Below are positions 3,683 through 50,806 of a stretch of 64,000 nucleotides of DNA, piece after piece. The notes under the pieces are model-generated. The model did not search any database. It worked only from the letters and a program-made list of their open reading frames with translations, and was not told the origin of the DNA. Location of the stretch: the NCBI GenBank assembly GCA_001779315.1, contig MFJU01000004.1, forward strand, positions 6,753 to 70,752, given 5' to 3'. The stretch's first letter is position 1. The number at the start of each line of letters is the position of its first letter. This stretch comes from Candidatus Gottesmanbacteria bacterium RIFCSPLOWO2_01_FULL_42_22 (lineage in GTDB: Bacteria > Patescibacteriota > Microgenomatia > 2-02-FULL-39-11). Both the position numbers and the translations under genes were made by a program.

Positions 3683-3804
3683 AAGGAAAATACTTGCCTC
3701 TATATAAAGATAAATACAATTTTTGGGAAAAAGCAAGAGGTACATGTATCTTTGAATTGACAGAATCATTTGAAAGTGTGCATAATAAATCAACGTTGAA
3801 AAAA

Positions 3805-10880: not shown

Positions 10881-10977
10881 CTCTTATTCTATTCTATCCT
10901 AACAATAATCTTGGGGACAACATTATTATTAAATTCAGAGACATTCAGTTATAATACAGGGCCTTGTAGCGATCTAT

Positions 10978-11655: not shown

Positions 11656-11716
11656 TAACCGTTAACCGTTAACCGACAACCTGGGAGGTTACCCAGCCTC
11701 GCAACCTGGGGAAATT

Positions 11717-19727: not shown

Positions 19728-19913
19728 ATGGATAAAAAAACTATGGCCATTTTGTTGAGTCTGGCTGCCCTTATCGCTGGAATCTATTTTCTGACAAACT
19801 CGGTTGATGTCAAACCTTTCTTCAGTTTCCCCGGCATTAACCAGGCTACCTCTTCTGGTTCCCAAAAAGGCTTCTCCGAACTCCTGGAACCGTCTCTTAC
19901 CCCTACTCCCTGA
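19728..19913 (+). CDS. Small membrane protein (61 aa), hypothetical.
   Basis: ORF immediately after the PEGA gene, with one TM helix (MAILLSLAALIAGIYFL). Confidence 0.3.
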   Translation: MDKKTMAILLSLAALIAGIYFLTNSVDVKPFFSFPGINQATSSGSQKGFSELLEPSLTPTP

Positions 19914-20643
19914 AATCCTTTTCCGGAACAGCCAGGATGATCAGTCGTTTAAAAGTCGTTCCCGGAGGCCAGCATGTCTGCAGTGTCAGCTGTTCATAGT
20001 TGGTCTGCCTGGTCAAATATTCAATTTCAGTCGGATCGACAATCAGTTTATTGGTTACCCTGTAAATATGCCTTTTTCCGTTCAAAAAAAGATCAACTTC
20101 ATCCCCTTTTTCCAGTTCCTTCAGTAAATAAAAAATAGCGTTATAACGGCCCACATTCCAAAAATTATCAGTTGAGTGGGCAAAGAGGAAAATATTACCC
20201 GTCACCCCCGGAAAAACCGTGCCGGCCGCGTGGGCGACTCCTTTTTTTAAAGCATCCAAATAAATATCAGGTTTGCCGGCATCAATATTGGGAGCAATCG
20301 GCGCGTTTGCCCCGATTTTCGGAATGATTATGCCGAATTTAGAGGATACCGGTTCCAGAAATTCCACTTTATCCCCGCCGGAAATCTGTCCAAAAAGTGT
20401 GTTGTTTATGATCTCCGGGGTTGGAGTAGGTTCCTCGCTCAATACCTCTGTTTCATCTTCAGCAACTACCCCCTTCCAGGCAATCTGGTAGCGGACATTT
20501 CTCATTTGGTTGAGCCGGTACTTGCTTTCCAAAAGCACAGCCGGACCCAATGTTCTGCTGATGCCATAGAGTGAAGCTAACAGAAGGAAATTTCCCAGTG
20601 TTCGTAAAATAATAAATCTGATAACTTCCCTGCTTATTTTCAT
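19903..20643 (-). CDS. Sortase family transpeptidase (second copy).
   Basis: It has an N-terminal TM helix. His is in IFLFAHSTD, Cys is in LTLQTCWP (TLxTC), and a conserved Arg follows. Confidence 0.7.
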   Translation of the reverse strand: MKISREVIRFIILRTLGNFLLLASLYGISRTLGPAVLLESKYRLNQMRNVRYQIAWKGVVAEDETEVLSEEPTPTPEIINNTLFGQISGGDKVEFLEPVSSKFGIIIPKIGANAPIAPNIDAGKPDIYLDALKKGVAHAAGTVFPGVTGNIFLFAHSTDNFWNVGRYNAIFYLLKELEKGDEVDLFLNGKRHIYRVTNKLIVDPTEIEYLTRQTNYEQLTLQTCWPPGTTFKRLIILAVPEKDFRE

Positions 20644-37486: not shown

Positions 37487-37900
37487 TCAGTTTTCCTTCA
37501 AAACCGTTACTTTTCTTTTGCTGTCTACCACCAGACTGTATTTTTCTTCAAAAATATCTTTTTTTCCCAATAAAAGCGGCATTGAATCTGCCTGTGTTTC
37601 AACTGCACTGCAGTATATTTTTATTATTTTCCGGCCGATTTTTACGGGAATATGAAATTCCCAACTTTTAACCGAGATGCCTCCGACACCCATCGTGGAA
37701 TTAACGACCAGATTCTTCTTTCTCAAGCCCAACACAGGCAAGAGATGTGAAGGGACTGTAGTGACATCGGCTCCGGTATCGACCAAGAACTCAAATTCCT
37801 GCCAACCGGCAATGGTCTTTAACTCTAACCGAATGATGGGATAAAATAATTTGCCTAAACCTGTAATTTCCGCGTATTCAAAGGGAAATTCTAAAGACAT
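37487..37900 (-). CDS. Retropepsin-like aspartic protease (second copy).
   Basis: FLVDTGADVTTV is the active-site motif. The Gly-rich flap is GVGGISV. Confidence 0.6.
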   Translation of the reverse strand: MSLEFPFEYAEITGLGKLFYPIIRLELKTIAGWQEFEFLVDTGADVTTVPSHLLPVLGLRKKNLVVNSTMGVGGISVKSWEFHIPVKIGRKIIKIYCSAVETQADSMPLLLGKKDIFEEKYSLVVDSKRKVTVLKEN

Positions 37901-38111
37901 ATTTGGAGTTTTTCTGGGGAATCCAGGAAATAGTTATATCCGCTTTTTTACCGGTTTTTTTGAAAAGAACATCCAGCCTCTTGGCATGAGCAACGATCTG
38001 CCCTGTTTTACGGTTTTTAGCCACATAGCCTGAACCATATTTTTTAATCAGTTCAGAAATATCGGTTGGTTTCATATTTATAAGTATATCTTTTACTACC
38101 GACTTTCTCAA
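37878..38111 (-). CDS. Small basic protein (77 aa) overlapping the start of the aspartic protease gene. It is either a partner or an N-terminal extension lost by a frameshift.
   Basis: ORF with a 23-nt out-of-frame overlap with 37487..37900. Confidence 0.3.
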   Translation of the reverse strand: MRKSVVKDILINMKPTDISELIKKYGSGYVAKNRKTGQIVAHAKRLDVLFKKTGKKADITISWIPQKNSKYVFRISL

Positions 38112-38149: not shown

Positions 38150-40288
38150 TCAGTAGATATCGAAGCTGATTTCCTTACAGCCGACCTTGAGGTTGGTCAC
38201 CGGATGGAAAGTCCCCAGCTGCAGTGATTTGGAAGTCGGTGCCAAAACCGTCGGCTTGGAATTGTCGAAATCAGGAATTCCCGTCGGTGTCGCTACTGCC
38301 AGAGGCTGAAGATTGTTTCTGTTATTCAACAAAAATACTCTCGACAGGAAATTGAGCAGGGAATCAAGAAGAGTCGTTTTTTTGGGTGTTTCAGTGCCCA
38401 GGACCGAGGCTGTGATACGGCCGCAGGCAATTTTCACCCAGATGCGGTAATGACCGGCGACACCCTCTCCAACCGGTACCAAAAAATCCCATTGGGTCTG
38501 GTATCTAGTGTCTGATCCGGGAACTTTTTCGGCTGTAATGGGATCGGAAACGGCGATTTCCGTTCCGTCTTTCTCCACATGGTATGTCATTGTCCGCACT
38601 TCCGTTGTATCCGGAAAGAGCGAGACTGCAAATGTCGTTATTGTCACTGTTTCCCCGCCGATGAAATTGCCGGCATATGTCACGCTGTCGCAATTGCAGG
38701 CTGCCGGAGGTGTCGGACTAGGTGATGCACTGATCCGCGGTTCGCGGTCCACATCGCATTGCGGATTGGATTCCGGACAGAACGGGCATTTGTCAGGACA
38801 TTGGTTCGGCTCGTCAGGACTGCATGGTTCACCGCAGGCAGGACCTTCGGGAGGCGGTTCTGCCGGCACGCATTTGGGGTTGGTGGCCGGGCACGATGGA
38901 CACTCCTGCGGGCAGTCAAAGGCTTCTTCCGGATTGCAGGGTTCGCCGCATGCCGGGGCTCCTGGTGTCGGAGTCGGCGGAATATCATCCCTGTCGACAC
39001 AGATCGGATTGGTATCGGGACAGAAAGGGCATTCCTGCGGACAGACATTTATCTTGTCCGGGTTGCAGGGTTTGCCGCAGGCAGGACCTTCGGGCGGAGG
39101 TTCTGCCACTTTACATACAGGATTAACTACCGGACAGGACGGACAATCCTGGGGACAATCAAAGGCTTCATTGGGATTACAGGGTTCTCCGCAGACCGGG
39201 GCTCCCGGTGTCGGACTTGCCGGCGGCGGTGTTCCCGATCCGCCGGGTGGAGGTGTTCCCGATCCCCCCGGTGGCGGTGTTCCCGATCCGCCGGGTGGAG
39301 GTGTTCCCGTTCCGCCGGGTGGAGGTGTTCCCGTTCCCGGACCCGGTGTATTTGTCGCAGGCGGTGCCCCACGGCTTAAGCTGACTACACAGGCAGCTTC
39401 CGGTGCCGACAGTCTACCGTCGGGTGTTACAAAATAAGCATTGATAGAAACTGAACTGGGTATCGCTCCCGTACTGGTATCTTGTACGAATACGTCTTCA
39501 TATTTCAAATCTCTTGAACCTCCCTTATTTGATGTTTTGTTGCCGTTGTAAATTAGCTGGACGGAACCGGTAGGACATCCTTGAATTTCAGTCGTACTTT
39601 CCCCTGTTCCTTTGGTAACGCAAAAGGGTTTGGCATTGCCCGGACCATAAAGATTGTCCTTATTGTAAAAAGCATAGAACAGGGATGCGATCTCCTCTTT
39701 TGCTTCAGAAGTCAATATGAAACTGCCTCCGGGAAATACCTCATTCTTGTCAATTGTTTCCTTAAGGCAAATTCCCGGTCTGGCAGGGGTCGGCGTCGGC
39801 GTTTCCGTCGGCGTACTGGTGGGAGGCGCTGGAGTGTTTGTAGGCGGTACCGGAGTACTTGTCGGTGACGGTCCGGGCGTATCGGTAGGCCCCCTTCCAC
39901 CCTTATCCTGGCATTTGTAACAAACTGTTGTATTATTACATTCGCCGCAATCAATAGTCTTCTTATCCACCTCTTCTTCACCGGCTTTACATTCATTAGT
40001 CTGATAACTTGGCGGACAATCAGGTGCCTCACAAATAGTAATACATTTTCCTTTATATTCAGTACATTCTTTTATCCCGTCGCCATCATCATCTCCTACC
40101 TTTACACAAGGATCACAACAACCCTGAAATGTACATTCTGTGCTTCCGCAGCTGGTTGAACAGGTGTCACAACTTCGGCAACTGTCTGCGCCTGCTCCGC
40201 TTACTCTATTTGGGGAAAAAAGAGACAGACCAAAAAAGATAATAAATATAATAAATAATATTATTTTTGGTTTGCAAATTATTCTCAT
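38150..40288 (-). CDS. Large secreted Cys-rich, Pro/Thr-rich surface protein (712 aa) with tandem Cys-module repeats and a paralogous C-terminal domain.
   Basis: It has a signal anchor, a CxxC-rich N-terminal region and PT linkers. Four tandem ~40-aa modules (ACGEPCNPEEAFDCPQECPSCPATNPKCV...) are followed by a (GTPPPGGSG)n run. Its C-terminal ~150 aa (CNCD...ITITT...SLFPDTT...SLQLGTFHPVTNLKVGCKEISFDIY) is shared with the 42386..43402 gene. Confidence 0.7.
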   Translation of the reverse strand: MRIICKPKIILFIIFIIFFGLSLFSPNRVSGAGADSCRSCDTCSTSCGSTECTFQGCCDPCVKVGDDDGDGIKECTEYKGKCITICEAPDCPPSYQTNECKAGEEEVDKKTIDCGECNNTTVCYKCQDKGGRGPTDTPGPSPTSTPVPPTNTPAPPTSTPTETPTPTPARPGICLKETIDKNEVFPGGSFILTSEAKEEIASLFYAFYNKDNLYGPGNAKPFCVTKGTGESTTEIQGCPTGSVQLIYNGNKTSNKGGSRDLKYEDVFVQDTSTGAIPSSVSINAYFVTPDGRLSAPEAACVVSLSRGAPPATNTPGPGTGTPPPGGTGTPPPGGSGTPPPGGSGTPPPGGSGTPPPASPTPGAPVCGEPCNPNEAFDCPQDCPSCPVVNPVCKVAEPPPEGPACGKPCNPDKINVCPQECPFCPDTNPICVDRDDIPPTPTPGAPACGEPCNPEEAFDCPQECPSCPATNPKCVPAEPPPEGPACGEPCSPDEPNQCPDKCPFCPESNPQCDVDREPRISASPSPTPPAACNCDSVTYAGNFIGGETVTITTFAVSLFPDTTEVRTMTYHVEKDGTEIAVSDPITAEKVPGSDTRYQTQWDFLVPVGEGVAGHYRIWVKIACGRITASVLGTETPKKTTLLDSLLNFLSRVFLLNNRNNLQPLAVATPTGIPDFDNSKPTVLAPTSKSLQLGTFHPVTNLKVGCKEISFDIY
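39222..39345. repeat. Tandem 27-nt DNA repeat (~4.5 copies) inside the 712-aa gene. It encodes GTPPPGGSG repeats.
   Basis: ggcggtgttcccgatccgccgggtgga is reiterated with minor variants. It generates the antisense Pro/Gly-rich + strand ORFs in the track. Confidence 0.7.
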
Positions 40289-40333
40289 TCTAATTAAGTC
40301 ATCTCATTAAACTGTCTAATTATCTATTTGAAT

Positions 40334-41458
40334 TCATTCTGTCAAATCTGCCAGTACCCCGGCAATCAAAGCGTTAACACGGGTATGATATGTCTTGCTT
40401 TGGAAATTGTGGTACAAGCTTAACTCTCTGTTATAGCTTTTTGACATTAATAACTGGACAACTTTATTTAATTCCGTTTTAATATCCTGATTATTATTTA
40501 TTTTAGAGAGTTCTTGTAAAAACATTATGTAATAAGCACAATCTTCTGCAGAGTTACAGCCTATTTTGGATTTGGCTTGAAGAAAATAATTGGCAAAATC
40601 AAGATATTTTGCTTCTTTTGTAGCTTTGTAAAGATCTATGCTGGCTATACCCAAAACGGCATCTTCGAGTTTATTATCCTTATTGCTAATAATCTGTAAC
40701 GCCATATCAAAATAAAATTTTGCTGCATCTAAATCGTCATTATTACCAAGATAGTAGTAGACATAAGTTAAATCAGAAGCATAGAGAGCATATTTATTAA
40801 AAGCCAAAGAATTAGCAATTTCCCATTTATCTAAAACTTTTCCCTCTATGACTTCATCTATTTTCGGATCAAGGTCATATTTTTTTTGTTTGATACTTCT
40901 ATTAAACTCATTCATTTCAGGACCGAAATGGATACTACCTATACAAACTTGATCAATTGCCTCTTTATTTTCTTTATCAAAGACTTCACTCTGACTCATC
41001 TCCCACATTAGCTTACAGTTATAGCTGTCATTTTGAGCCGGGAATCCGATTTCCGGTGTCGTTAATATAATTATGTCATTCTTTATTTTTACTAAATCCA
41101 CTTCTTTATTTGTGTTAAGGAAATTCTTGTACCTTGCCCAAAGTACATAAAGTCCGTATTGTTTATTTGTCTCTGTTGATTTCTGACATCCCTCACCGCC
41201 CAAACAATCCTCAAAAAGCAAATATCTACCCTTCTCATTCTTCATGCTATCCAACCATTTGATGATATTTCCGGCGATTTCCCTGGCTTTTTCCGGTGAG
41301 ATTTGGCCTGAACCCTGGGGATTAATGTCTTGTTCGATGGGTCTGAGATCGACTTTAGGGATAGGTAGAGGTTTACTTAGTGAAAGACGCCAGAAAACTA
41401 TGGCGGAAATGATAATTAGAAGTCCAATGGAGGAAAAGATGAGCAATTTCTTTTTCAT
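40334..41458 (-). CDS. Membrane-anchored hypothetical protein (374 aa), AT-rich.
   Basis: ORF with one N-terminal TM helix. I recognise no domain. Composition is clearly more AT-rich than the flanks. Confidence 0.5.
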   Translation of the reverse strand: MKKKLLIFSSIGLLIIISAIVFWRLSLSKPLPIPKVDLRPIEQDINPQGSGQISPEKAREIAGNIIKWLDSMKNEKGRYLLFEDCLGGEGCQKSTETNKQYGLYVLWARYKNFLNTNKEVDLVKIKNDIIILTTPEIGFPAQNDSYNCKLMWEMSQSEVFDKENKEAIDQVCIGSIHFGPEMNEFNRSIKQKKYDLDPKIDEVIEGKVLDKWEIANSLAFNKYALYASDLTYVYYYLGNNDDLDAAKFYFDMALQIISNKDNKLEDAVLGIASIDLYKATKEAKYLDFANYFLQAKSKIGCNSAEDCAYYIMFLQELSKINNNQDIKTELNKVVQLLMSKSYNRELSLYHNFQSKTYHTRVNALIAGVLADLTE

Positions 41459-41554
41459 CTAATTCCAGAATATGTAGAAAAGCGGCAAGAGTCAATATGT
41501 GTACAGTACAATATGTAGGCGGACATTTGATAGCTTTTATACTATAATCTGACT

Positions 41555-41974
41555 ATGGATGTTGACCAGTATAAACAATCAATCAGAGATTTTTTTAATA
41601 TTGAGCCGGTTGAAGCGGTATATCTTTATGGATCAGAGGCTATCGGAACGCCTAATAATCAGTCGGATATTGATATTGCCGTACTTTTCCGGAATGGGAT
41701 TAACCCAAAAAGGCGATTTGATTTACGCCTGAATTACATTGGATTTTTTTCCCGGTTACTGGGGAGGAATGATGTGGAAGTAATTGATCTCGACGCAGTT
41801 TCACTCGCACTGCAATACTCTGCAGTCGGTCCCAGGAAGATTCTTTTTGAAAAAAAGGGGGGTAACAGACGGACCCGTTTTGAAGCCGAAGTATTATCCA
41901 GATATTTTGATTACCGGTATTATATTCGCCAGAATTCCCTCCGGGGTCTTTCTTCGATGGTAAAAGGATTTTAG
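41555..41974 (+). CDS. Minimal nucleotidyltransferase (MntA-like antitoxin).
   Basis: LYGSEAIGTPNNQSDIDIAVLF is the GSx9-13D[IL]D NTase motif. -10 TATAAT at 41544..41549 lies only 5 nt from the ATG, so the transcript is likely leaderless. Confidence 0.75.
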   Translation: MDVDQYKQSIRDFFNIEPVEAVYLYGSEAIGTPNNQSDIDIAVLFRNGINPKRRFDLRLNYIGFFSRLLGRNDVEVIDLDAVSLALQYSAVGPRKILFEKKGGNRRTRFEAEVLSRYFDYRYYIRQNSLRGLSSMVKGF

Positions 41975-41976
41975 CT

Positions 41977-42393
41977 ATGGATACGATTGATAGAATAAAC
42001 ATCAGATTGAAAAGCCTAAAGGAATATGTGGTTTTTTTAGAGAAATATCAGGGGATTGCGGCTGCGGTATTGGAAAAAGACCTTGAAAAAAGAGGATTTA
42101 TCGGGCATTACCTGCATTTGTCTGCTGAAATAGTGATTGACATCTCTAATTTGCTTAACGCTGAATATAAATTTCGTCCTGCCCAAGATGCCTCAGAAAG
42201 TATTCTCATTCTGGGTGAAGAGGGAGTAATTGAAAAAGATTTTGCAAAACATTTCTCTAAAATCGCCGGATTTCGGAATATTTTGATTCATGAATATCTG
42301 AAAATAGATTATAAGATTGTCGCTGACAATTTAAATAAGTATTTGGCAGACTTTGAGAAGTTCGCCCGTCAGGTAGCCAAATATCTTACCTGA
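41977..42393 (+). CDS. HepT-like HEPN toxin (DUF86).
   Basis: RNILIHEY is the Rx4HxY HEPN motif. It lies 3 nt downstream of the MNT gene. Confidence 0.75.
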   Translation: MDTIDRINIRLKSLKEYVVFLEKYQGIAAAVLEKDLEKRGFIGHYLHLSAEIVIDISNLLNAEYKFRPAQDASESILILGEEGVIEKDFAKHFSKIAGFRNILIHEYLKIDYKIVADNLNKYLADFEKFARQVAKYLT

Positions 42394-43402
42394 TCGTAAA
42401 ATACATGTCCTTACAGCCTAGTTTGAGACTGGCAATGGGATGGAATGTCCCCAATTGCAAAGAATTGACACCGGAGGGAGCGATGACAGTCACGCTGGGA
42501 AATAGTCCGTAATCTTGGGCTGAAACAGGCTTGATGATAGAAGCTGTCTTTTTAGCACAGACAATTTGGGCGCTGATATGGTAGTTGCCCGGAGAGTCTT
42601 TGCCTTGCGGCAGACGGTATTTCCAGGATGTTTCGTATCGTCCGTAGGAGTTGAAAATTTCGGAGGCCGGGATGGTTTTCGATTTGGCGATTTCTACCCC
42701 GTTTTTAAAAACACGGTAAATCATATAACCCACTTTGGTTGTATCCGGGAAAAGGGATCTGGCGCGGGTGGTGATGGTAATCTGCTCCCCTGTCCTCAGA
42801 TTATCGCTGACGGTCATATTCTCGCAGTTGCAGGCTGAGGCGGGAGTGACAGTAATATTAGGAGGCCTCGTTCCCGTTGCTGTTACGGAAGGCGGCGGGC
42901 GGTAATTCGGATCGTAAATTATGTCTACCACTTTTGCCTCTGCCATACTGTTATTCAATTTATTCCCGGGTATAGCTTCAAACGGAGGAGGCACGGAAAA
43001 ACCGCCTGTCCAGTTTTTCGGCATGACAGCTGTAATTTTATGGGGATTTTGCCTGCAGCCGAATCCATCGGGAACATCCTTTTCCCTGCCCTCCGGTATG
43101 ACATTGCATTCCCGGCTCTCGGGGACTCCGTCATGATCCGTATCGATCATAGTCTGATACATTTGCTCTCTTTTTTCTCTTGGCAGTAAACTATATGACG
43201 AATAGAAAAAATAACCGTCGGGATTGGTAAAGGTATAGCGGATATTGTTCTCACTGTCTTCCCATTTGACGGCTATGCCCCCTATCGGAACCCCTGTTTT
43301 GGTTTTGACATAGCCCCAGACAGGCGGAGCATAAGCTTCAACTTTATCTGGAATAAATAAGGCCGCCAGAAATAATAATATCAGCAGAATTTTTTTTATC
43401 AT
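42386..43402 (-). CDS. Secreted protein (338 aa) carrying the same C-terminal ~150-aa domain as the 712-aa protein.
   Basis: It has a signal peptide (MIKKILLILLFLAALFIP). ACNCENMTVSDN...ITITTRARSLFPDTT...SLQLGTFHPIASLKLGCKDMYFTIR aligns along its length with the C-terminus of the 38150..40288 gene. Confidence 0.6.
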   Translation of the reverse strand: MIKKILLILLFLAALFIPDKVEAYAPPVWGYVKTKTGVPIGGIAVKWEDSENNIRYTFTNPDGYFFYSSYSLLPREKREQMYQTMIDTDHDGVPESRECNVIPEGREKDVPDGFGCRQNPHKITAVMPKNWTGGFSVPPPFEAIPGNKLNNSMAEAKVVDIIYDPNYRPPPSVTATGTRPPNITVTPASACNCENMTVSDNLRTGEQITITTRARSLFPDTTKVGYMIYRVFKNGVEIAKSKTIPASEIFNSYGRYETSWKYRLPQGKDSPGNYHISAQIVCAKKTASIIKPVSAQDYGLFPSVTVIAPSGVNSLQLGTFHPIASLKLGCKDMYFTIR

Positions 43403-44415
43403 GGCTCTTTTATTGAATTCTCGGCAAGTTTCTTATCTTCTATTTTGGCAAACATAAAGACGGCTTCAATCGGTTGCGAATTAACATTGGGGGTATCTTT
43501 GGCCAGATAAACATCGGAAATTCCACCTTCCGGCAGTTTCCATAAATTAGTGTCAAAATTGGGATCCAGACTGATTTTTTCGCCTTCCCGGACATCGAAA
43601 CGGAAGGAGGCGTTGGATTCGTAGGATGTGTCAATTTGTTCCAGCTCACTATCTTGTTTAATAATATCAATCGCCTCCTCCATCGTAATAGTGCCTTTTT
43701 TGACATTCCTCTGTAAAGCATCGATCTTACCATAAGCCATTTCTTTGCTTTTTTGATAGCCTAAAGGTCCGATTTTCTCGTTGTAAAACCAGATCGAAAC
43801 TATCGTGCCTGACAGCCGGGAAAGGCGGCTGTCAAAAATGCCTTTGACTTCCTTAACCAGAGAAAGGCGTTTTTGGTAATCTTTGTCAGGGGAATTATAG
43901 ACTGTCTCATCCAGGCTGATCACTCCTTCACCGGCCGCTTTCTGCAAAAGATTTGAGTCGCTACTGATCTTCTCGATCAGGCTTTTTCTGACATCCGGGT
44001 TGTATTGGGGCGGATAAAACAGTAATTCGCTATCGACGTCCTTCTGGAAGATCCTTTCCTCGCCGACAGTGGCGACAATTGCCGCAGAATCTTCTTTATC
44101 AGGGCCTGGACTCTTGCCGGTGACTGCGTCAATGACAGCGTAGGGCGTGCCGGAGGAAATACTTTCCTTATCAGGAGATTCCCACTTATTCTCTCCCAGA
44201 CAGGTATATCCGGCGATATTAATGCCTTTGAGCTGGCATTTACCGTGTACGCAGCAGCCGCCAAAGCAATTCCTGCCTCCACAGACAAATTCCGGTTGAG
44301 GAATTGTTTCCCGCGGGAAATAGCGGTAGGCGGCAAAAGTGGCCGCTAAAATCAAAATTAGAAACAAAACGATCGAAATCCGGCTGGAAAATATTCGGCT
44401 GAATATATCTCTCAT
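43399..44415 (-). CDS. Membrane-anchored protein with a CxxC-rich juxtamembrane segment. Parvulin/PrsA-like similarity is possible but weak.
   Basis: It has an N-terminal TM helix, then CGGRNCFGGCCVHGKC. There is a 4-nt overlap with the downstream secreted-protein gene, consistent with an operon. Confidence 0.5.
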   Translation of the reverse strand: MRDIFSRIFSSRISIVLFLILILAATFAAYRYFPRETIPQPEFVCGGRNCFGGCCVHGKCQLKGINIAGYTCLGENKWESPDKESISSGTPYAVIDAVTGKSPGPDKEDSAAIVATVGEERIFQKDVDSELLFYPPQYNPDVRKSLIEKISSDSNLLQKAAGEGVISLDETVYNSPDKDYQKRLSLVKEVKGIFDSRLSRLSGTIVSIWFYNEKIGPLGYQKSKEMAYGKIDALQRNVKKGTITMEEAIDIIKQDSELEQIDTSYESNASFRFDVREGEKISLDPNFDTNLWKLPEGGISDVYLAKDTPNVNSQPIEAVFMFAKIEDKKLAENSIKEP

Positions 44416-44470: not shown

Positions 44471-44779
44471 TTAAGAAGTACTTACTTTAGATTTCAAATT
44501 TGCCCTGACTTTTACCACATCTTCATCATCACCAGCGGTGCTTAATACTCTAATCATATCTTGGTATATCCTTACGTATTCATTGTTTATCTTCTGCAAT
44601 TCAATTGCCGACATTAGATTTTCAATTACGAACAAAAGCGTTTCTTTTGTAACACTGCTATCCTCAAGCATCGACAAAAGCTCTGCTTCCTTTTCTTTTT
44701 TGTCTTCATAAACCAGATGTACCAGCTCGACTGCCAATTTTTGTAAATTCTCCTTTGGGAAATATATTTGTTGATCCAT
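44471..44779 (-). CDS. Small acidic protein (102 aa), hypothetical, downstream partner of the 682-aa gene.
   Basis: ORF 26 nt after the stop of 44806..46854. It is strongly acidic and helical. Confidence 0.4.
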   Translation of the reverse strand: MDQQIYFPKENLQKLAVELVHLVYEDKKEKEAELLSMLEDSSVTKETLLFVIENLMSAIELQKINNEYVRIYQDMIRVLSTAGDDEDVVKVRANLKSKVSTS

Positions 44780-44805
44780 TTTTTTATAATTTAAATCTTA
44801 ATAAT

Positions 44806-46854
44806 TTAGTCTAACTTGATTTTACCTAATTTGCTGGTAATTTTCTCTCTGATATAACCGCTGACTGTTTCGGAAATTATTGTCCGGACGTTGATACCCC
44901 ATGTCTTTTGCTTTTCTTCCAGCTTTGCATCGTCGTCAGTTGTTTCCTTATACACAGCCGGCACTGTCTCCTCGATTCTTCTGCTGATATCACCGACCAT
45001 CGTTGGAATTCTGTTTCTGTCACTGAAGTATCTCTCTGTCAAACTGGTCATACTGCTAAGCTGATCTCGCACATTACTAACAATCTTTCTTCTGGTTTCA
45101 CCTAATTTTGTAGTTTCCTCTCTCCTGACTGATTCAGTTGCCGGGACTGCCATCACCGGTACCTCTCCCCCCGAAAGCAAAGAAGCCATAACTCTCTCCT
45201 GCTTGTCATAAATTGATAATACCGACTTGGCTACCTTCCTCACTCCGTCCATCGGATTACCGGCTGTTTCAAGCCTAACGGCTAAATTTACCATTTCCTT
45301 TCTCCAGGTTTCTTTTCCTCCGACAGTATCGTCTTTTATAGCAGGAATTCCGTTCTTACCTTCCCAGACATCCTTCAAGAGGTTCACTTTAATTTGCAAT
45401 GCTTCCTGCTGGGATTTTAAGGTTGGTTCCCTTAACTGTGAAGCCGGACTTTGTATTTCCTCTGCTTGGCCGTCTTTTTGCACTTTTAAGGTACCGTCTT
45501 CACTCCGAAAGGTATATCCCTGTTGTGCCAGTTCTGAACAGCGGCTGTCAGCGGCGAATCCTTCGAAGATTCTGTTTCCGGTCAGTCCGATCATGTGACT
45601 TAGAGTTTGAACTAGCGCTTTTCTTTGTATTGGATCCTGAATTGCCGCATCACTTAACTCCAATCCAACCGCTTCGGCAATCAGCCTCATATTTACCTGT
45701 GTTTCCGCATCCTGGGGTTCCCTTAAATCACCGTCAGCAATTTGTCCCTGGAAATTTACGACAGCCACTGCGGTATCGAGGCGCTTTTGTGTGTGTTCTG
45801 CCAGTTTTACTTCAGCTTGAGTCTCTATGGCTTGTTTTATCCTGGCTTCAGCTTCAGGGGCCACCACCAAATTGCCGTCTTTATCTAATGTCGCTTCCGG
45901 ATCCCTCATCACTTGTTCTACCAGTTCATCATTAACCTCTAATTGCTTTTTTACATTGGGATTTACACTGGCAAAGTTGTCAACGGTTGTTTGCATTTTC
46001 TGTCCGTCGGCCGAATCTGCCAGCGTGATTTTATGGTACGCCAGTTCAGTTGAAGTGACCTTTTTTGTCCCATCATTTGCTTCTGACATTCCATCCTGCC
46101 AGTCAGTTGAGGCTAAATTTGCTTCTTGTAATACAATCTCTACTGCTTCTCTGGCTTTTAATGCCTGCCTGGCTTCACTAGTCAATCCACCTTTAACCAG
46201 TTCATTAACTGCTGCCCAGTTTTGACTGCCGTTAACAAATCCTGCCACATCACTATCTACCCTCATCCGGGAAGTTTCCGCCCCTGTCACCGCTCTTCTG
46301 GCCTTCCCTGTATTAATGTTACCGATTCTCTCATTATGCTCATCACTGACTTCCGCAACCCTCACCATTTGACCAGTCACTATTTCGGCGACAGTCGTAT
46401 CGACCACTTCAGTCCTTACTTTACCAGTGTAAGCTTTTGCCGCTTCCTGCCCAACCTCAGCAACTACCTCTGCCATGACTGCCGGCCTTGATGTCATCAT
46501 GGAGGGAACATCTCTTAATAATCTTTTCTTCTTTTTTCCGGCATTTGTTTCGGTAATCAGTTTAGCCTCTTCCACTTGCCCGGAAGCTGTTTCCAGTTTT
46601 TTTCCGGTTTCATCTGCCGCCCGTGCTTCTGTAGCGTTAGCCGCCAATACGGCTGATTCACTAGCCAGTCCCTGATTTTGCTCTTTTTCCTGTAATACTA
46701 CTTTCTTAAACATGTCAAGAGCTTCAGTCACTGGCTTGATTCTGGCTTCTCCAACCTGCACAGCCCCTTCAATTGGCTTTCTTAAGAATGCTCTTTCTGC
46801 TCTTGTTTTAAGTGCGCTAAATCTCTCTGCAATATTTGGTCTTATTTCTGACAT
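44806..46854 (-). CDS. Large hydrophilic Ala/Glu/Thr/Val-rich protein (682 aa), hypothetical, with no TM helix and no signal peptide.
   Basis: Long ORF with distinctly higher GC and different codon usage than its neighbours. I recognise no catalytic motifs. Confidence 0.5.
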   Translation of the reverse strand: MSEIRPNIAERFSALKTRAERAFLRKPIEGAVQVGEARIKPVTEALDMFKKVVLQEKEQNQGLASESAVLAANATEARAADETGKKLETASGQVEEAKLITETNAGKKKKRLLRDVPSMMTSRPAVMAEVVAEVGQEAAKAYTGKVRTEVVDTTVAEIVTGQMVRVAEVSDEHNERIGNINTGKARRAVTGAETSRMRVDSDVAGFVNGSQNWAAVNELVKGGLTSEARQALKAREAVEIVLQEANLASTDWQDGMSEANDGTKKVTSTELAYHKITLADSADGQKMQTTVDNFASVNPNVKKQLEVNDELVEQVMRDPEATLDKDGNLVVAPEAEARIKQAIETQAEVKLAEHTQKRLDTAVAVVNFQGQIADGDLREPQDAETQVNMRLIAEAVGLELSDAAIQDPIQRKALVQTLSHMIGLTGNRIFEGFAADSRCSELAQQGYTFRSEDGTLKVQKDGQAEEIQSPASQLREPTLKSQQEALQIKVNLLKDVWEGKNGIPAIKDDTVGGKETWRKEMVNLAVRLETAGNPMDGVRKVAKSVLSIYDKQERVMASLLSGGEVPVMAVPATESVRREETTKLGETRRKIVSNVRDQLSSMTSLTERYFSDRNRIPTMVGDISRRIEETVPAVYKETTDDDAKLEEKQKTWGINVRTIISETVSGYIREKITSKLGKIKLD

Positions 46855-48049: not shown

Positions 48050-50806
48050 TCACATTCTCTCGACAGTCTCAATCCCCAGAAGCCATAAACCTTTTTTGAT
48101 TATTTTTGAGGTTGTATGCGTTAAAGCCAGCCTGAATAGGGAAGCTTGATTTTGCTTTTGATTGCCCAAAATCAGGTGTTTACTGTAAAAAACATTGTAC
48201 TTCTGAGCCAAACCGTATAAATAGGCAGCTATTGCCGAAGGCAAAAAATTCCTGCCGGCCTCTAAAACGACCTCTTCAAACTGATAAAACGTTCTCAACA
48301 GATCTTTTTCTTCTTCATTTAACTTTTTTCCATACTTAATACTTGATACCATATACTTAATACCGCGATCTTCGGCCTTACGAAGCACACTCCGGCATCT
48401 GGCATAGGTATATTGCAAATACGGCCCGCTGTCGCCCTCGAAATTGACCGACTTTTCCAAATCAAAAACAATGTCAGCCGGCAGAGCTACTTTCAAAAGC
48501 GAATATTTTATGGCGGCCACCGCAGTTTTCTCCAAAATAAGCTCGGATTCCGCTTTTGTGTAGTTGTCTGATCCGGTATTATGCAGCCTCTCTTTCAGCT
48601 TCGTTTTAACCATTTCCAGGAGCGCTTCTCCGGATATTATCTTGCCGGTCCTGGAGCTCATTTTGCCTTCCGGCAGTTTGACGAGGCCGTGTCCGAGATG
48701 TCTGGTTTTAGAAGCCAAATCAGGCTTGACGAGTGACAGCACCTTCAATAAAACCTGGAAATACTCATTGATCTCTTTGGCCGTAACGATCATCGAAAAA
48801 TCATACTGGAAGTCTTTATATTTAGTCGGCGCCAACCCCAACTCTTTAGTTTCATATGTCGGCAAACCTAATGCGTTGATAAATACACGGGTGTGAAGAC
48901 CGTATTTTTCTCCCCGGAAGACTGTCGCTCCCTCGCTTTTTTCGAAAATACCCTTTTCCAAACCTTCTTTGACAATCTGCAGGCCGTATTCACCGACAAT
49001 CGATTCCGGGTAATAGTAATCAAATTTTGCTCCCAGACGCCTATAAATGCTTTCAAAATAAGCTAAACTCCACTCCCGGCCCTTTTGAAACAGACTGCCC
49101 ACTTCCTGAATTTCTTTTTCATCTGCTTTGACGAATTGCCGGTAATTAATCCGGGGCTCCCATTTCATCTTTTTCTGCATGTAATCCTGGGCGGCAACAA
49201 AGACCAGATAGTTTATCTTATTCATCTCTTCCTTAGCTTTCTCATCCTCTTCGAAAGCGGTCGCACCAATTGCATAAGCTTCACCCAGATACTTCACTTT
49301 TTGAGTTAAGGATTTATTATCCATGTTTTTGGCCAGCTTCTTCATCCCCCAGATTGATTTGGCCACATGCATGCCGACATCGCCGAAATAATTCGCCCGT
49401 GCAACCTTGGCGCCCAACTCTTCATTTATCCTGGCAATAGATTCCCCTACGCTGTTACTGTATACGTGACCGATGTGAAACTCCTTAAAGGGATTGGGGT
49501 CGGTAAACTCTATAATCATCTTTTTACCTGTTTTCACGCTCTTTCCATAATCTGGCGCTCGTCCCATTTGACTGATAAGGTATTTTTCAGCCAGGAAGAT
49601 GTTGATAAAGCCGGGAAGCACTGCTTTTACATTCTCCAGGACATCTGATACTATAAATTTACTACCAGTATAATCATTACTATAAGTACTATATGACATC
49701 GATTGACCGCTTCCTATATACTTATTTAGTTGTTGGCTTATCTTTTCCGCTAATTCAATAGGTTTGACTTTTATTTTAGAAGCCGTAATCATGGCTAGAT
49801 TAGATGAATAATCCCCATAGTTTTTGCTGGAAGGATGCTCGAGTTTTATATCCCCGTATCTGATTCCAGAGTCCGGATAAAGTTTTTGAAAGGCCGAAAG
49901 AAGGGCGGATTTGATTTTTTTATCCGTGGAAACTTCGGCGTTTTCCAGTAAAGGATTGACCGCGGTTTTACTTTTTTCCGGGACTTTTTTTACTTTTTTC
50001 TCCCTTTCCCCGGATTTGATTAAGTCCTGTTTATTTTCTTTTAAATGTTCTTTTTTTGCCCGTTCAAAGGAAAACTCGATTGACTGTTTGTTTTGGGATA
50101 GAATTGCGGATTCGGTCCCGGCCTTAAAATGCATCTTTATATGTTGCTCCGCCTCTTCCAGAGCCTCGCTCAACTTCTCACGGGATAATGACGGCGCTTT
50201 TTCGACAACCAGGACGGCGTTGACCGTCTCTTTATCAATCTTTGTCCTGTCAGCCTCCCGCCAGTTCCATTTGCGGCAGATAAAGCCCTCCTCGTCCTGG
50301 TAGATGACTTCCCCGGGATCGCACTTTTCAGGCTGTGTTGAGCCGATAGTTATCCCCTCCTCATTGCCGGAAGCAAAAGTCAGCCGGATATCACCTTTAA
50401 CCTTATCCAGGTCCTCTGCTCCGGCCGGGAGGTGAAATTTTAATGACAGGTAGTTATAGAGATCTACTAGCTTGTTGATATGCGGTATTTCCTTATTACC
50501 GGCTCTAGCCCGTCTCAACAATGATTCAACCGAAGAGCGATAATCTTTGGGATGAGAGCCAAACGAGCGGTATATCTCGCGCCACTGGGAAATTTCCGGC
50601 AGGCTACCTATCTCCGTCTCGGCTAAAAGCATCTTCTGATTGGCCTCCTCTATCCGCAGCAGCTTCAAAATCTCCTCATTCCGGCCTGTATTATCCATCC
50701 CTTTGATGACAATCACCCCGATCTCAACCCCCGGATATTTCTCAAAAATTTGATTGATTATGATAAATTTCATCTTGACTTGCCTCTTTTTATTTGATAT
50801 ATTCAA
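48050..50806 (-). CDS. argS: Arginyl-tRNA synthetase with an N-terminal B3/4-domain (COG3382-like) fusion of ~290 aa.
   Basis: The ArgS core is FTDPNPFKEFHIGH (HIGH), an Arg_tRNA_synt_N-like segment from ~residue 300, and a DALR anticodon-binding C-terminus. The N-terminal LVDLYNYLSLKFHLPAGAEDLDKVKGDIRLTFA...NAVLVVEKA matches the PheT B3/4 domain pattern (Nyv..e.G.P.HafDldk..g.i..r.A). The track start is a TTG; ATG at 50773 is an alternative. Confidence 0.85.
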   Translation of the reverse strand: MNISNKKRQVKMKFIIINQIFEKYPGVEIGVIVIKGMDNTGRNEEILKLLRIEEANQKMLLAETEIGSLPEISQWREIYRSFGSHPKDYRSSVESLLRRARAGNKEIPHINKLVDLYNYLSLKFHLPAGAEDLDKVKGDIRLTFASGNEEGITIGSTQPEKCDPGEVIYQDEEGFICRKWNWREADRTKIDKETVNAVLVVEKAPSLSREKLSEALEEAEQHIKMHFKAGTESAILSQNKQSIEFSFERAKKEHLKENKQDLIKSGEREKKVKKVPEKSKTAVNPLLENAEVSTDKKIKSALLSAFQKLYPDSGIRYGDIKLEHPSSKNYGDYSSNLAMITASKIKVKPIELAEKISQQLNKYIGSGQSMSYSTYSNDYTGSKFIVSDVLENVKAVLPGFINIFLAEKYLISQMGRAPDYGKSVKTGKKMIIEFTDPNPFKEFHIGHVYSNSVGESIARINEELGAKVARANYFGDVGMHVAKSIWGMKKLAKNMDNKSLTQKVKYLGEAYAIGATAFEEDEKAKEEMNKINYLVFVAAQDYMQKKMKWEPRINYRQFVKADEKEIQEVGSLFQKGREWSLAYFESIYRRLGAKFDYYYPESIVGEYGLQIVKEGLEKGIFEKSEGATVFRGEKYGLHTRVFINALGLPTYETKELGLAPTKYKDFQYDFSMIVTAKEINEYFQVLLKVLSLVKPDLASKTRHLGHGLVKLPEGKMSSRTGKIISGEALLEMVKTKLKERLHNTGSDNYTKAESELILEKTAVAAIKYSLLKVALPADIVFDLEKSVNFEGDSGPYLQYTYARCRSVLRKAEDRGIKYMVSSIKYGKKLNEEEKDLLRTFYQFEEVVLEAGRNFLPSAIAAYLYGLAQKYNVFYSKHLILGNQKQNQASLFRLALTHTTSKIIKKGLWLLGIETVERM

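What the first reader, a model, noticed from the sequence alone, without database searches (positions are those of the whole stretch)
38150..43402. Two secreted proteins share a ~150-aa C-terminal domain that ends in a conserved SLQLGTFHP..LK.GCK..F.I motif
The 712-aa Cys-rich repeat protein and the 338-aa secreted protein are otherwise unrelated. Their C-terminal regions align along their whole length (CNC[DE]...ITITT.A.SLFPDTT.V..M.Y.V.K.G.EIA.S ... SLQLGTFHP[VI]..LK[VL]GCK[ED][IM].F.I[YR]). I do not recognise this domain: it is not LPXTG, PEP-CTERM, GlyGly-CTERM or a T9SS CTD, and it has no C-terminal TM helix. It could be a lineage-specific surface-anchoring, sorting or adhesion domain. 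Two sortase genes are also in this window (10978..11655 and 19903..20643). The intervening genes are a membrane protein, an MNT/HEPN pair and a putative foldase-like membrane protein overlapping by 4 nt.
Basis: seen in the sequence. Interest (0 to 1): 0.6.

Follow-up and report, generated by a model that had tools for sequence, protein, structure and literature searches.

The report
Unannotated C-terminal domain of Microgenomates secreted proteins
Two otherwise unrelated secreted proteins of a Gottesmanbacteria-like (CPR) bacterium share a real C-terminal domain absent from Pfam-A and NCBIfam: a disulfide-locked Ig-like fold found in about 150 protein clusters, whose genes usually sit just downstream of a gene for a membrane-anchored helical protein, so it is probably a common handle that holds these proteins at the cell surface.

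Summary
The last 187 aa of protein A (38150..40288, -) and the last 153 aa of protein B (42386..43402, -) align at BLASTP E=5e-34 and nowhere else. An exhaustive HMMER search found 159 cluster representatives, about 148 of them real. In 137 of the 150 best-scoring hits the match ends 0-7 residues from the C-terminus. All named members come from Candidatus Gottesmanbacteria or other Microgenomates.

Pfam-A, NCBIfam, PHROGs, PDB sequences and the literature searches gave no match. AlphaFold2 (pLDDT 83-87) predicts an Ig-like beta-sandwich. Its last hairpin comes from the extreme C-terminus after a 32-97-residue flexible loop. That loop usually carries an amphipathic helix and ends in L[QK]LGTFxP. 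Four near-invariant cysteines are lost in pairs, which implies two disulfides.

A new point is gene pairing. In the loci retrieved, most domain genes (11 of about 15 non-redundant) directly follow a gene for an N-terminally membrane-anchored, probably all-alpha protein. Three such partner families exist, and two are in this window. The pairing holds across unrelated passenger regions.

The domain is not a sortase, T9SS or PEP-CTERM signal. The best reading, an inference, is a lineage-specific surface-retention or assembly module. Hairpin-swap polymerisation is not excluded.

The parts
38150..40288 (-). Protein A, 712 aa. Signal peptide, Cys-rich region, P/T linker, GTPPPGG[ST] repeats, four Cys-rich ~38-aa repeats, then the C-terminal domain (CTD).
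   Evidence: ORF. Identical to public 712-aa protein P0165 in a cluster of Gottesmanbacteria alleles. No Pfam or NCBIfam hit.
38153..38713 (-). CTD of A (aa 526-712). Ig-like beta-sandwich, flexible loop, C-terminal beta-hairpin.
   Evidence: BLASTP E=5e-34 to B. Family HMM covers positions 1-188. AF2 model mad3949b71cdf has pLDDT 83, with strands 9-102 and 175-189 and a helix at 120-131.
38330..38365 (-). Amphipathic helix in the CTD loop of A (aa 642-653, DSLLNFLSRVFL).
   Evidence: Predicted helix with low positional confidence. The family consensus [SG]FFxxIxxFFxxLFG is present in most members.
38201..38227 (-). Conserved motif SLQLGTFHP of A (aa 688-696), entering the terminal hairpin VTNLKVGCKEISFDIY.
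   Evidence: Family conservation is L 82%, Q/K 94%, L 88%, T 81%, F 74%, P 87%. The pLDDT block covering SLQLG is about 66 in the monomer model; the block covering TFHP is 88.
42386..43402 (-). Protein B, 338 aa. Signal peptide, a weak sub-threshold CarboxypepD_reg-like segment within an otherwise unknown region, P-rich linker, then the CTD.
   Evidence: ORF. Pfam CarboxypepD_reg scores E=0.003, below the curated cut-off. P0002 is 99% identical over the CTD.
42389..42847 (-). CTD of B (aa 186-338). Same fold with the shortest loop in the family; the amphipathic helix is deleted.
   Evidence: AF2 model m72b482bb705a has pLDDT 86.6. The ortholog in L001 keeps the helix segment SLWSGILGMFF.
42437..42463 (-). 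Conserved motif SLQLGTFHP of B (aa 314-322).
   Evidence: pLDDT is about 62.
43399..44415 (-). Partner family F2, 338 aa. N-terminal TM helix, Cys-knot module, ectodomain of unknown fold. Its stop codon overlaps the start of B by 4 nt.
   Evidence: ORF. It is 67% identical to the L001 339-aa protein and 34% identical (E=9e-34) to the L033/L034 315-aa protein, and each of these lies directly upstream of a CTD gene. No Pfam or PDB match; trigger-factor C-domain scores only E=0.29.
40334..41458 (-). Partner family F1, 374 aa. N-terminal TM helix and an (alpha/alpha)6 six-hairpin-like ectodomain, 45 nt upstream of A.
   Evidence: Homologs in L001, L016, L021, L025 and L035 each lie 1-45 nt upstream of a CTD gene. 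The F1 profile hits Lin0763 (1.8e-5), GH76 alpha-1,6-mannanase (4.6e-5), and GH127 and GH9 more weakly. Four of six members give weak Pfam GH127_cat hits.
39228..39337 (-). 24-nt tandem repeat in A encoding GTPPPGG[ST], polymorphic in copy number between public alleles.
   Evidence: TRF reports 4.6 copies. Alleles of 688, 696, 704, 712 and 720 aa carry 2-6 units; four of them differ only in this.

Best explanation
The shared region is a genuine, previously unannotated C-terminal domain family. I call it the CxC...LQLGTF CTD here. As far as records are named, it is confined to Microgenomates (CPR), mainly Gottesmanbacteria.

Shown:
- It is an Ig-like beta-sandwich of about 100 residues.
- After a 32-97-residue flexible loop, the extreme C-terminal beta-hairpin closes the sandwich.
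- The loop usually holds a 14-residue amphipathic helix and ends in L[QK]LGTFxP.
- The domain always sits at the very C-terminus, behind a P/T-rich linker.
- The proteins carrying it have signal-peptide-like N-termini (judged by eye and a hydrophobicity heuristic), unrelated passenger regions and high cysteine content.
- Most CTD genes in the loci retrieved directly follow a gene for an N-terminally membrane-anchored protein with an outward-facing, probably all-alpha domain.

Inferred from paired cysteine loss:
- Two disulfides, C6-C97 and C8-C180. The second would staple the terminal hairpin to the first strand.

Inferred mechanism:
- After Sec export and signal-peptide cleavage, the CTD folds and is oxidised outside the cell.
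- It then acts as a common handle that keeps otherwise soluble passengers at the cell surface.
- The conserved elements that are poorly placed in the monomer models (the amphipathic helix and the L[QK]LG start of the motif) are the likely contact points.
- The likely binding partner is the cognate membrane-anchored protein: F1 (six-hairpin-like), F2 (unknown fold) or F3 (TPR). Envelope glycan or membrane binding are alternatives.

It is not a sortase-type or other TM-containing sorting signal.
For: - Homology: E=5e-34 between A and B. There are 159 representatives at E<=1e-3. In 137 of the 150 listed, the match ends 0-7 aa from the C-terminus, and the domain is never internal or repeated.
- N-termini: 100 of 107 full-length members have a signal-like hydrophobic start.
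- Passengers: median 6.7% Cys, and the 30 residues before the domain are 60% P+T+S. Pfam finds almost nothing in 104 members. Passengers include a YD/SpvB protein, a Hint protein and CarboxypepD_reg-like regions.
- Retention need: 115 of 117 CTDs have no TM-like segment. By eye, A and B have no lipobox. The CTD is therefore the only candidate retention element.
- Structure: two AF2 models (pLDDT 86.6 and 83.0) give the same sandwich, closed by the C-terminal strands.
- Cysteines: the CCCC pattern holds in 113 of 115 members. One member lost C6 and C97 together, and one lost all four.
- Pairing: F1, F2 or F3 lies -26 to +45 nt upstream of 11 of about 15 non-redundant CTD genes. Cassettes occur in tandem: F2-B-F1-A, CTD-F1-CTD and F1-CTD-F1.
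- Passengers downstream of the same partner family are unrelated by BLAST.
- Paralogy: at least three CTD proteins occur in Gottesmanbacteria GW2011_GWA2_42_18 and at least three in Microgenomates PFL108.
Against: - No experiment or interaction prediction links the CTD to the partner proteins or to the envelope.
- Three unrelated partner folds argue against one specific receptor.
- One subfamily (P0013-like; L019 and L022) has only a 129-aa non-TM gene upstream.
- B lacks the amphipathic helix, so the helix cannot be essential.
- CTD similarity follows lineage rather than partner type (identities).
- The related loci were retrieved with a motif-based DNA pattern and are a biased sample.
- Signal peptides were judged by eye and a simple heuristic only.
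- The low pLDDT of the motif may reflect AF2 uncertainty rather than true exposure.
Confidence: 0.4

Rival explanations
1. Hairpin-swap (donor-strand-like) assembly module. The terminal beta-hairpin on its long tether inserts into the sandwich of a neighbouring subunit instead of its own. The C8-C180 disulfide then forms between molecules. Different passengers would be polymerised into a surface fibre or layer. The membrane-anchored partner would act as a chaperone or primer.
For: - A 32-97-residue flexible tether separates strand 6 from the closing hairpin.
- A conserved motif sits at the entry of the hairpin.
- Several CTD paralogs occur per genome, and cassettes are arranged in tandem.
- There is a CPR precedent. 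Pam pili are built from Ig-like pilins by donor-strand exchange with membrane-anchored chaperones, and they occur in Microgenomatia (bioRxiv 10.64898/2026.03.03.709456).
Against: - AF2 confidently self-complements the sandwich in both monomer models (pLDDT 88-97 for the last strands).
- The partners are all-alpha or of unknown fold, not PapD-like.
- Passengers are not pilin-like, and one is as large as a 1.8-kDa-residue YD protein (1839 aa).
- No multimer prediction could be run.
Confidence: 0.15
2. Distal binding domain (adhesin, carbohydrate-binding or lipid-binding) rather than an anchor. The Ig-like sandwich would bind a host-cell or environmental ligand, such as a glycan or lipid. The passenger or the partner would provide attachment to the producing cell.
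For: - Foldseek's best matches are ligand-binding E-set sandwiches: RhoGDI (E=3.4e-4, TM 0.44-0.5), NPC2, CARDB and the Wzt carbohydrate-binding domain.
- Y71, W75 and Y89 are near-invariant aromatics.
- Glycan-related neighbours recur: the GH76/GH127-like F1, and NAGPA.
- CPR bacteria are generally episymbionts that depend on host contact (established knowledge).
Against: - Strict C-terminal placement, single copy per protein and unrelated passengers fit a targeting or retention module better than a ligand-binding domain, which usually varies in position and copy number.
- After signal-peptide cleavage, nothing else in A or B could hold the protein on the cell.
- The fold matches are generic, with TM no higher than about 0.5.
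Confidence: 0.2
3. Cleavable sorting signal. L[QK]LGTFxP would be the recognition or cleavage site of a dedicated processing enzyme, by analogy with the T9SS CTD and PorU or with sortase and LPXTG. The passenger would then be attached covalently to the wall or a glycan, perhaps with help from the GH76-like F1.
For: - The motif is as conserved as the fold's core residues, yet its first residues (L[QK]LG) sit in low-confidence blocks of the monomer models.
- The domain is at the extreme C-terminus and has the same fold class as the T9SS CTD.
- Sortases are encoded in the genome.
Against: - No TM or basic tail is present, as sortase, exosortase or rhombosortase systems would require.
- No NCBIfam or Pfam sorting-domain model matches at E<=1.
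- No protease or transpeptidase is consistently adjacent.
- The Q of the motif is K in 29% of members and the G is only 56% conserved.
- Cleavage at the motif would leave the hairpin attached through the disulfide.
Confidence: 0.1
4. A plain structural or stability module with no targeting role. The upstream partner genes would be chaperones or enzymes needed for the disulfide-rich, possibly glycosylated proteins as a whole, not CTD-binding proteins.
For: - F2 reads as PrsA/SurA-like by eye, with only weak hints: trigger-factor C-domain E=0.29, and SurA_N_3 E=0.061 in an L007 neighbour.
- Passengers are Cys-rich and P/T-rich.
- PMT_2 glycosyltransferase genes lie nearby in L001.
Against: - The pairing persists across unrelated passengers, and the CTD is the only shared element.
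- A domain that only adds stability would not need to be strictly C-terminal or to keep a conserved motif whose start is poorly placed in the models.
Confidence: 0.1

Closest known systems
T9SS C-terminal domain (Por_Secre_tail, TIGR04183) of Bacteroidota
   Same: It sits at the extreme C-terminus of Sec-exported proteins with unrelated passengers, forms a seven-stranded Ig-like beta-sandwich, has conserved motifs in the last strands, and occurs in many paralogs per genome.
   Different: No sequence-model match. The organism is a CPR bacterium, which is generally considered monoderm-like and to lack an outer membrane (established knowledge, not tested here). This CTD is about twice as long, carries a 32-97-aa internal loop and two inferred disulfides, and there is no evidence of cleavage.
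Pam pilins of CPR bacteria (PamA/PamB; bioRxiv 10.64898/2026.03.03.709456)
   Same: CPR-specific, Sec-secreted, Ig-like C-terminal domain, paired cysteines, membrane-anchored helper proteins encoded next door, and present in Microgenomatia.
   Different: Pam pilins share a conserved nine-strand N-terminal domain and donate a linker strand to an open, truncated Ig domain. Their helpers are PapD/FimC-like with a C-terminal TM. Here the passengers are unrelated, the sandwich is closed by its own C-terminal hairpin in the models, and the partners are helical or of unknown fold with an N-terminal TM. Sequence homology to PamA/PamB could not be tested.
Non-covalent C-terminal surface-retention domains of Gram-positive bacteria (WxL, SLH, CWB2, GW modules)
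   Same: A C-terminal module without a TM or LPXTG motif that holds diverse secreted proteins at the surface of a cell generally thought to lack an outer membrane. This matches the role proposed here.
   Different: No Pfam match to any of them. The motif set is different (CxC, Y..W, L[QK]LGTFxP). Binding to wall polymers has not been tested.
E-set ligand-binding sandwiches (RhoGDI, NPC2/ML, CARDB, Wzt-CBD)
   Same: These are the best structural matches to the predicted sandwich (Foldseek E=3e-4 to 8e-3, TM 0.3-0.5).
   Different: Only a generic fold-class resemblance. Sequence identity is 10-18%, there is no sequence-profile match, and neither the disulfide pattern nor the tethered hairpin is shared.
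LPXTG sortase sorting signal
   Same: C-terminal location in secreted proteins of a genome that encodes sortases.
   Different: There is no LPXTG-like pentapeptide in register, no hydrophobic C-terminal helix and no basic tail. It is a folded domain of 150-220 aa rather than a 35-aa signal.

Membership tests
LPXTG/sortase cell-wall sorting signal | LPXTG-like pentapeptide followed by a C-terminal hydrophobic helix and a basic tail | tested here: not met
   115 of 117 CTDs have no TM-like 19-mer (mean KD > 1.6). The tails end 2-12 residues after a beta-strand. No ORF in the window has such a signal.
LPXTG/sortase cell-wall sorting signal | Sortase encoded with or near its substrates | tested here: inconclusive
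   Two sortase genes are in the window, but they lie 17-27 kb away. None is adjacent to a CTD gene in the related loci whose called genes were inspected.
T9SS C-terminal domain (TIGR04183 / Por_Secre_tail) | Match to the curated sequence model | tested here: not met
   NCBIfam and Pfam scans of A, B and 35 CTDs at E<=1 gave no such hit.
T9SS C-terminal domain (TIGR04183 / Por_Secre_tail) | Ig-like beta-sandwich at the extreme C-terminus of secreted proteins with diverse passengers | tested here: met
   AF2 models, position statistics and passenger diversity. This is a resemblance in kind only.
T9SS C-terminal domain (TIGR04183 / Por_Secre_tail) | Host genome encodes a T9SS (PorU/PorV/SprA and others) and an outer membrane | not tested
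   Only 64 kb of the genome was available. The 25 Pfam families displayed (of 43 matched) in the window overview include no T9SS components. CPR bacteria are generally considered to lack an outer membrane (established knowledge).
PEP-CTERM / GlyGly-CTERM / other NCBIfam C-terminal sorting domains | Short motif plus TM helix plus basic cluster, matched by NCBIfam models | tested here: not met
   No NCBIfam hits and no TM segment.
Pam pilins (CPR donor-strand pili) | Conserved nine-strand N-terminal sandwich plus linker donor strand plus truncated (open) Ig-like C-terminal domain | tested here: not met
   Passengers are mutually unrelated and range from about 100 to about 1650 aa. The models show a closed, self-complemented sandwich.
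Pam pilins (CPR donor-strand pili) | PapD/FimC-like chaperones with a C-terminal TM in the same operon | tested here: not met
   F1 matches (alpha/alpha)6 proteins, F3 is TPR, F2 has no match, and all have an N-terminal TM.
Pam pilins (CPR donor-strand pili) | Sequence or structure homology to PamA/PamB | not testable with these tools
PDB profile and Foldseek searches returned no pilin among the listed matches.
RhoGDI / ML (NPC2) lipid-binding E-set domains | Fold match with a hydrophobic ligand pocket between the sheets | tested here: inconclusive
   Foldseek E=3.4e-4 with TM 0.44-0.5 for RhoGDI, and E=1.6e-3 for NPC2. The match is weaker for the second model.
CARDB / WxL / other Pfam Ig-like surface domains | Match to the Pfam model | tested here: not met
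   No recurrent Pfam family among 35 CTDs, even at E<=1.

The most novel reading that the evidence does not exclude
The CTD and its upstream membrane-anchored partner (F1 six-hairpin-like, F2 or F3 TPR) may form a previously unrecognised, Microgenomates-specific two-gene system for surface display or assembly. In this reading the tethered, disulfide-locked C-terminal hairpin is exchanged between subunits, or handed to the partner. Unrelated secreted passengers (a Cys-rich 'agglutinin', a YD-shell protein, small sandwich proteins) would then be built into a common cell-surface structure used for host contact. This would be mechanistically parallel to the Pam donor-strand pili, but evolutionarily distinct from them.
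Probability: 0.15. Interest if true: 0.8.

Novelty: new variant of a known kind. Interest (0 to 1): 0.55.

Why it matters
CPR bacteria such as Microgenomates are largely uncultivated and thought to live attached to other cells. How they display proteins on their surface is barely known. This work defines a sequence family with a predicted fold, an inferred disulfide map and diagnostic motifs, and it marks a whole set of secreted proteins as probable surface proteins. It also reveals a recurrent two-gene cassette of a membrane-anchored helical partner followed by a CTD protein, which gives a directly testable hypothesis for surface retention or assembly. A Pfam- or NCBIfam-style model of the CTD would improve annotation of more than one hundred clusters of 'hypothetical proteins', including a mis-named 'Plus agglutinin'. 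It would also point to candidates for host-interaction studies.

Tried and rejected
- The word-indexed protein search with B's CTD alone found nothing. The exhaustive profile search was needed.
- phmmer and profile searches of PDB sequences gave only spurious hits: TAL effector low complexity, PrtH at E=0.01.
- PHROGs gave no hits.
- The search for related loci failed on three alignments: two had no sufficiently conserved stretch and one found nothing. A hand-built degenerate DNA pattern for L[QK]LGTFxP-x7-C-x4-F was used instead.
- P0065 and P0134 were rejected as family members. They are FN3 or low-complexity repeat proteins that match only part of the sandwich.
- Sortase substrate hypothesis: rejected, because no sorting signal is present.
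- Lipoprotein anchoring: rejected by eye, because neither A nor B has a lipobox.
- Isopeptide or ester cross-link domain: considered and dropped, because no invariant Lys, Asn, Asp or Thr-Gln pair exists and the Q of the motif is often K.
- Promoter and terminator scans were at chance level.
- Phage or mobile-element origin: nothing supports it. There are no PHROG hits and the chromosomal synteny is conserved.
- The 'foldase' identity of F2 could not be confirmed.
- An apparent occurrence in Gammaproteobacteria (L013, L015) is probably a mislabelled MAG. The Ddl protein of L013 is 72% identical to a Levybacteria protein.

Full report
**Observation.** ORF A (38150..40288, minus strand, 712 aa) and ORF B (42386..43402, minus strand, 338 aa) are present as described. 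BLASTP aligns A 526-711 with B 186-337 at 38% identity and E=5e-34. All other segment pairs have E>1, so the two proteins share only their C-terminal regions. A has a 35-residue insert relative to B. tblastn with both domains, and later an iterated family HMM on all six-frame ORFs, find exactly two copies in the 64-kb window. Pfam confirms the MNT/HepT pair at 41555..42393 and both sortases. The 'foldase-like' gene that overlaps B by 4 nt lies at 43399..44415, upstream of B.

**Is it a known domain?** The following searches gave no meaningful match.
- Pfam-A, NCBIfam and PHROGs scans of A and B.
- Pfam and NCBIfam scans of 35 diverse family members at E<=1, which showed no recurrent family.
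- phmmer and profile searches of all PDB sequences.
- A full-text search for the motif.

**Family.** An exhaustive HMMER search with the two-sequence profile over 1.84 billion cluster representatives returned 159 proteins at E<=1e-3, and 57 at E<=1e-10.
- Two hits (P0065, P0134) are FN3 or low-complexity repeat proteins and were discarded.
- In 137 of the 150 listed proteins the match ends 0-7 residues before the C-terminus. The domain is never internal or repeated.
- 100 of 107 full-length members start with a signal-like hydrophobic segment.
- The regions in front of the domain (the 'passengers') almost never match Pfam. Among 104 members there were two CarboxypepD_reg hits, one Hint and one Big_1.
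- One 1.8-kaa member is an SpvB/RHS (YD) protein.
- Passengers are cysteine-rich (median 6.7% Cys). They are joined to the domain by a linker that is 60% Pro, Thr and Ser.

**Taxonomy.**
- Every cluster that carries a name is Candidatus Gottesmanbacteria or 'Candidatus Microgenomates bacterium'.
- A motif-based DNA scan of GTDB species representatives gave seven true loci: three Gottesmanbacteria genomes, Microgenomates PFL108, and two MAGs titled 'uncultured Gammaproteobacteria'.
- The nearest named relative of the D-Ala-D-Ala ligase next to one of these last two is a Levybacteria protein at 72% identity. Other named hits are near 60%. The title is therefore probably wrong.

**Source of the window.** A is identical to a 712-aa public allele. 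Its 720-aa allele is KKS47294.1, automatically named 'Plus agglutinin', from Gottesmanbacteria GW2011_GWA2_42_18. The window thus comes from that species or a close relative. The same genome encodes a YD-repeat protein (KKS47868.1) with the domain at residues 1663-1835. Microgenomates PFL108 has at least three copies.

**Anatomy of the domain.** Column statistics over 179 aligned domains give the following features.
- CxC[DE] at the start.
- G20, Y71, W75, P80, Y89 and C97 in the body.
- A frequently conserved VLG just after the last body strand.
- A 14-residue amphipathic segment, [SG]FFxxIxxFFxxLFG.
- A Pro/Thr-rich stretch.
- L[QK]LGTFxP, then usually 7 residues, then an invariant Cys, then xxxxFx[VI], then 2-12 more residues to the end.

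The loop between C97 and the motif is 32-97 residues long, with a median of 67. B has the shortest loop and has lost the amphipathic segment, while its ortholog in locus L001 keeps it. Only 2 of 117 domains have anything TM-like.

**Predicted structure.** AlphaFold2 was run with family alignments of 33 and 35 sequences. It gave pLDDT 86.6 for B's domain and 83.0 for A's.
- Six strands (residues 9-102) form an Ig-like sandwich.
- The sandwich is completed by the extreme C-terminal strand or strands. In A these are VTNLKV and EISFDI.
- The loop between is low-confidence throughout, including the predicted helix. The first residues of the motif (L[QK]LG) also fall in low-confidence blocks.

The four cysteines are CCCC in 113 of 115 members. 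One member has lost C6 and C97 together, and one (the YD protein) has lost all four. This implies disulfides C6-C97 and C8-C180. The second would staple the terminal hairpin to strand 1. This is an inference, because model coordinates could not be inspected.

Foldseek against the PDB returns only generic E-set sandwiches: RhoGDI (E=3.4e-4, TM 0.44-0.5), NPC2, CARDB and the Wzt carbohydrate-binding domain. Foldseek against viral structures returns nothing specific.

**Genomic context.** In a Gottesmanbacteria relative (L001, and GWA2_43_14 in L014) the order is ArgRS, VanY, a small ORF, a 339-aa protein, B-ortholog, a 420-aa protein, A-ortholog, and further on a holin-like gene. The four-gene block is therefore conserved. 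The MNT/HepT pair in the window is an insertion between B and the 374-aa gene.

I then collected 36 further loci that carry family members and examined the flanking ORFs. Of about 15 non-redundant domain genes with upstream sequence available, 11 are directly preceded on the same strand, at -26 to +45 nt, by a gene for a protein with an N-terminal TM helix and an external domain. These partners fall into three families.
- **F1.** Window 40334..41458, with L001 420 aa, L016 442 aa, L021 439 aa, L025 402 aa and L035 439 aa plus a second partial copy. The F1 profile matches (alpha/alpha)6 six-hairpin proteins: Lin0763 at 1.8e-5, GH76 alpha-1,6-mannanase at 4.6e-5, and GH127 and GH9 more weakly. 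Four of six members give weak GH127 hits in Pfam.
- **F2.** Window 43399..44415, with L001 339 aa and L033/L034 315 aa (E=9e-34). No database match was found. The 'foldase' reading rests only on sub-threshold hints.
- **F3.** TM plus TPR, 415-445 aa, in L004, L008, L015 and L041. In L004 and L008 the domain gene is followed by a TM-NAGPA gene.

In relatives, F1 and F2 share an N-terminal Cys-knot module. Cassettes occur in tandem: F2-B-F1-A, CTD-F1-CTD and F1-CTD-F1.

The passengers downstream of the same partner family are unrelated by BLAST. Examples are A versus the L016, L021 and L025 proteins, and B versus the L033 protein. The pairing therefore goes with the shared C-terminal domain and not with the passenger.

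There are exceptions. The P0013-like subfamily has only a 129-aa non-TM gene upstream. Two further genes have unclassified TM proteins upstream. The loci were also retrieved through a motif pattern, so the sample is biased.

**Interpretation.** What is shown:
- The family exists.
- It is strictly C-terminal.
- It has a predicted fold, paired cysteine loss and no TM segment.
- Its passengers are diverse.
- It is paralogous within genomes and, as far as named records go, confined to Microgenomates.
- Its genes are paired with partner genes.

What is inferred is that the domain is the common handle by which these Sec-exported proteins are kept at, or assembled on, the cell surface. After signal-peptide removal nothing else in A or B could retain them. 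The most plausible contacts are the conserved amphipathic helix and the start of the L[QK]LGTFxP motif, both poorly placed in the monomer models, together with the membrane-anchored partner encoded immediately upstream. Envelope glycans are an alternative contact, given the glycosidase-like F1 and the NAGPA neighbours. I give this reading 0.4.

The rivals are as follows.
- Hairpin-swap polymerisation (0.15). The long tether makes it attractive, as does the recently described CPR Pam pilus, which assembles Ig-like pilins by donor-strand exchange with membrane-anchored chaperones. However, the monomer models self-complement confidently, and the partners are not PapD-like.
- A distal ligand-binding domain (0.2).
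- A cleaved sorting signal (0.1).
- A mere stability module (0.1).

A sortase connection is not supported. The domain has no sorting-signal anatomy, no sortase lies near family genes in the related loci inspected, and no canonical sortase substrate was detected in the window.

**Comparison and novelty.** Functionally, the closest known kinds are the C-terminal retention and sorting domains: the T9SS CTD, WxL, and SLH or CWB2 modules. Within CPR bacteria the closest system is the Pam pilins. The membership tests for LPXTG, T9SS CTD, the PEP-CTERM class, Pam pilins and the Pfam Ig-like surface families all failed on at least one defining feature. The RhoGDI/ML resemblance is only at fold-class level. 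I therefore rate this as a new variant of a known kind: a new domain family with an unusual tethered-hairpin topology and a new gene pairing. It is of moderate interest, mainly for CPR cell-surface biology and for annotation.

Noticed in passing
window 39228..39337 (inside protein A): A 24-nt tandem repeat (4.6 copies) encodes GTPPPGG[ST]. Public alleles of 688, 696, 704, 712 and 720 aa carry 2-6 copies. The 696-720-aa alleles differ only in copy number, which points to population-level length variation in a probable surface protein.
   Followed up: partly
window 41555..42393 (+): The MNT (Polbeta nucleotidyltransferase) / HepT toxin-antitoxin pair is an insertion. In the syntenic locus L001, only 40 nt separate the B ortholog from the F1 gene. 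The HepT 3' end overlaps the 3' end of B by 8 nt, in convergent orientation.
   Followed up: partly
window 43399..44415; L001 8685..9704 and 10803..12065; L016 648..1976; L035 1581..2900: A Cys-knot module of about 45 aa (C..C..GCC..GKC..KG..AGY.C...N.W.TP) follows the TM helix in F2 and in most F1 proteins. It is missing from the window's own F1 (40334..41458). Its function is unknown.
   Followed up: partly
window 48050..50806 (-): An arginyl-tRNA synthetase carries an N-terminal B3/4 domain, normally found in the PheRS beta subunit. The same fusion is present in the related locus L001.
   Followed up: no
P0006/P0180 (KKS47868.1, Gottesmanbacteria GW2011_GWA2_42_18); not in the window: A 1.8-kaa SpvB/RHS (YD-repeat) protein ends in a copy of the domain that has lost all four cysteines. 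The domain starts right after YD repeats, with no recognisable Rhs core-end motif (DPxGL).
   Followed up: partly
L013 and L015 (GTDB genome contigs CAZIAP010000001.1 and CAYPEN010000001.1): Two MAGs titled 'uncultured Gammaproteobacteria' carry true family members in Microgenomates-like gene contexts. The Ddl protein of L013 is 72% identical to a Candidatus Levybacteria protein, so the record titles are probably wrong.
   Followed up: partly
window 44471..46854 (-): A 682-aa ORF and a 102-aa ORF have no Pfam or PHROGs match. They lie between VanY and F2. In the syntenic locus L001 only a small ORF of about 100 aa occupies this position.
   Followed up: no
window 37487..37900 (-): A 137-aa ORF matches retropepsin-like aspartyl protease families (gag-asp_proteas at 1.1e-7, plus RVP and Asp_protease_2). 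It overlaps the end of a 77-aa ORF at 37878..38111 and lies just downstream of protein A.
   Followed up: no
window 10978..11655 (+) and 19903..20643 (-): There are two sortase genes, but a motif-plus-TM heuristic finds no ORF in the window with a canonical LPXTG, TM and basic-tail signal. Their substrates are presumably encoded elsewhere.
   Followed up: partly
window, whole: The general context is rich in cell-envelope genes: four GT1/GT4 glycosyltransferases, WecG/TagA, a bifunctional PBP, MreB, and a CBM96 protein at 2210..3793. In L001, two PMT_2 glycosyltransferase genes lie 5-9 kb from the cassette.
   Followed up: no
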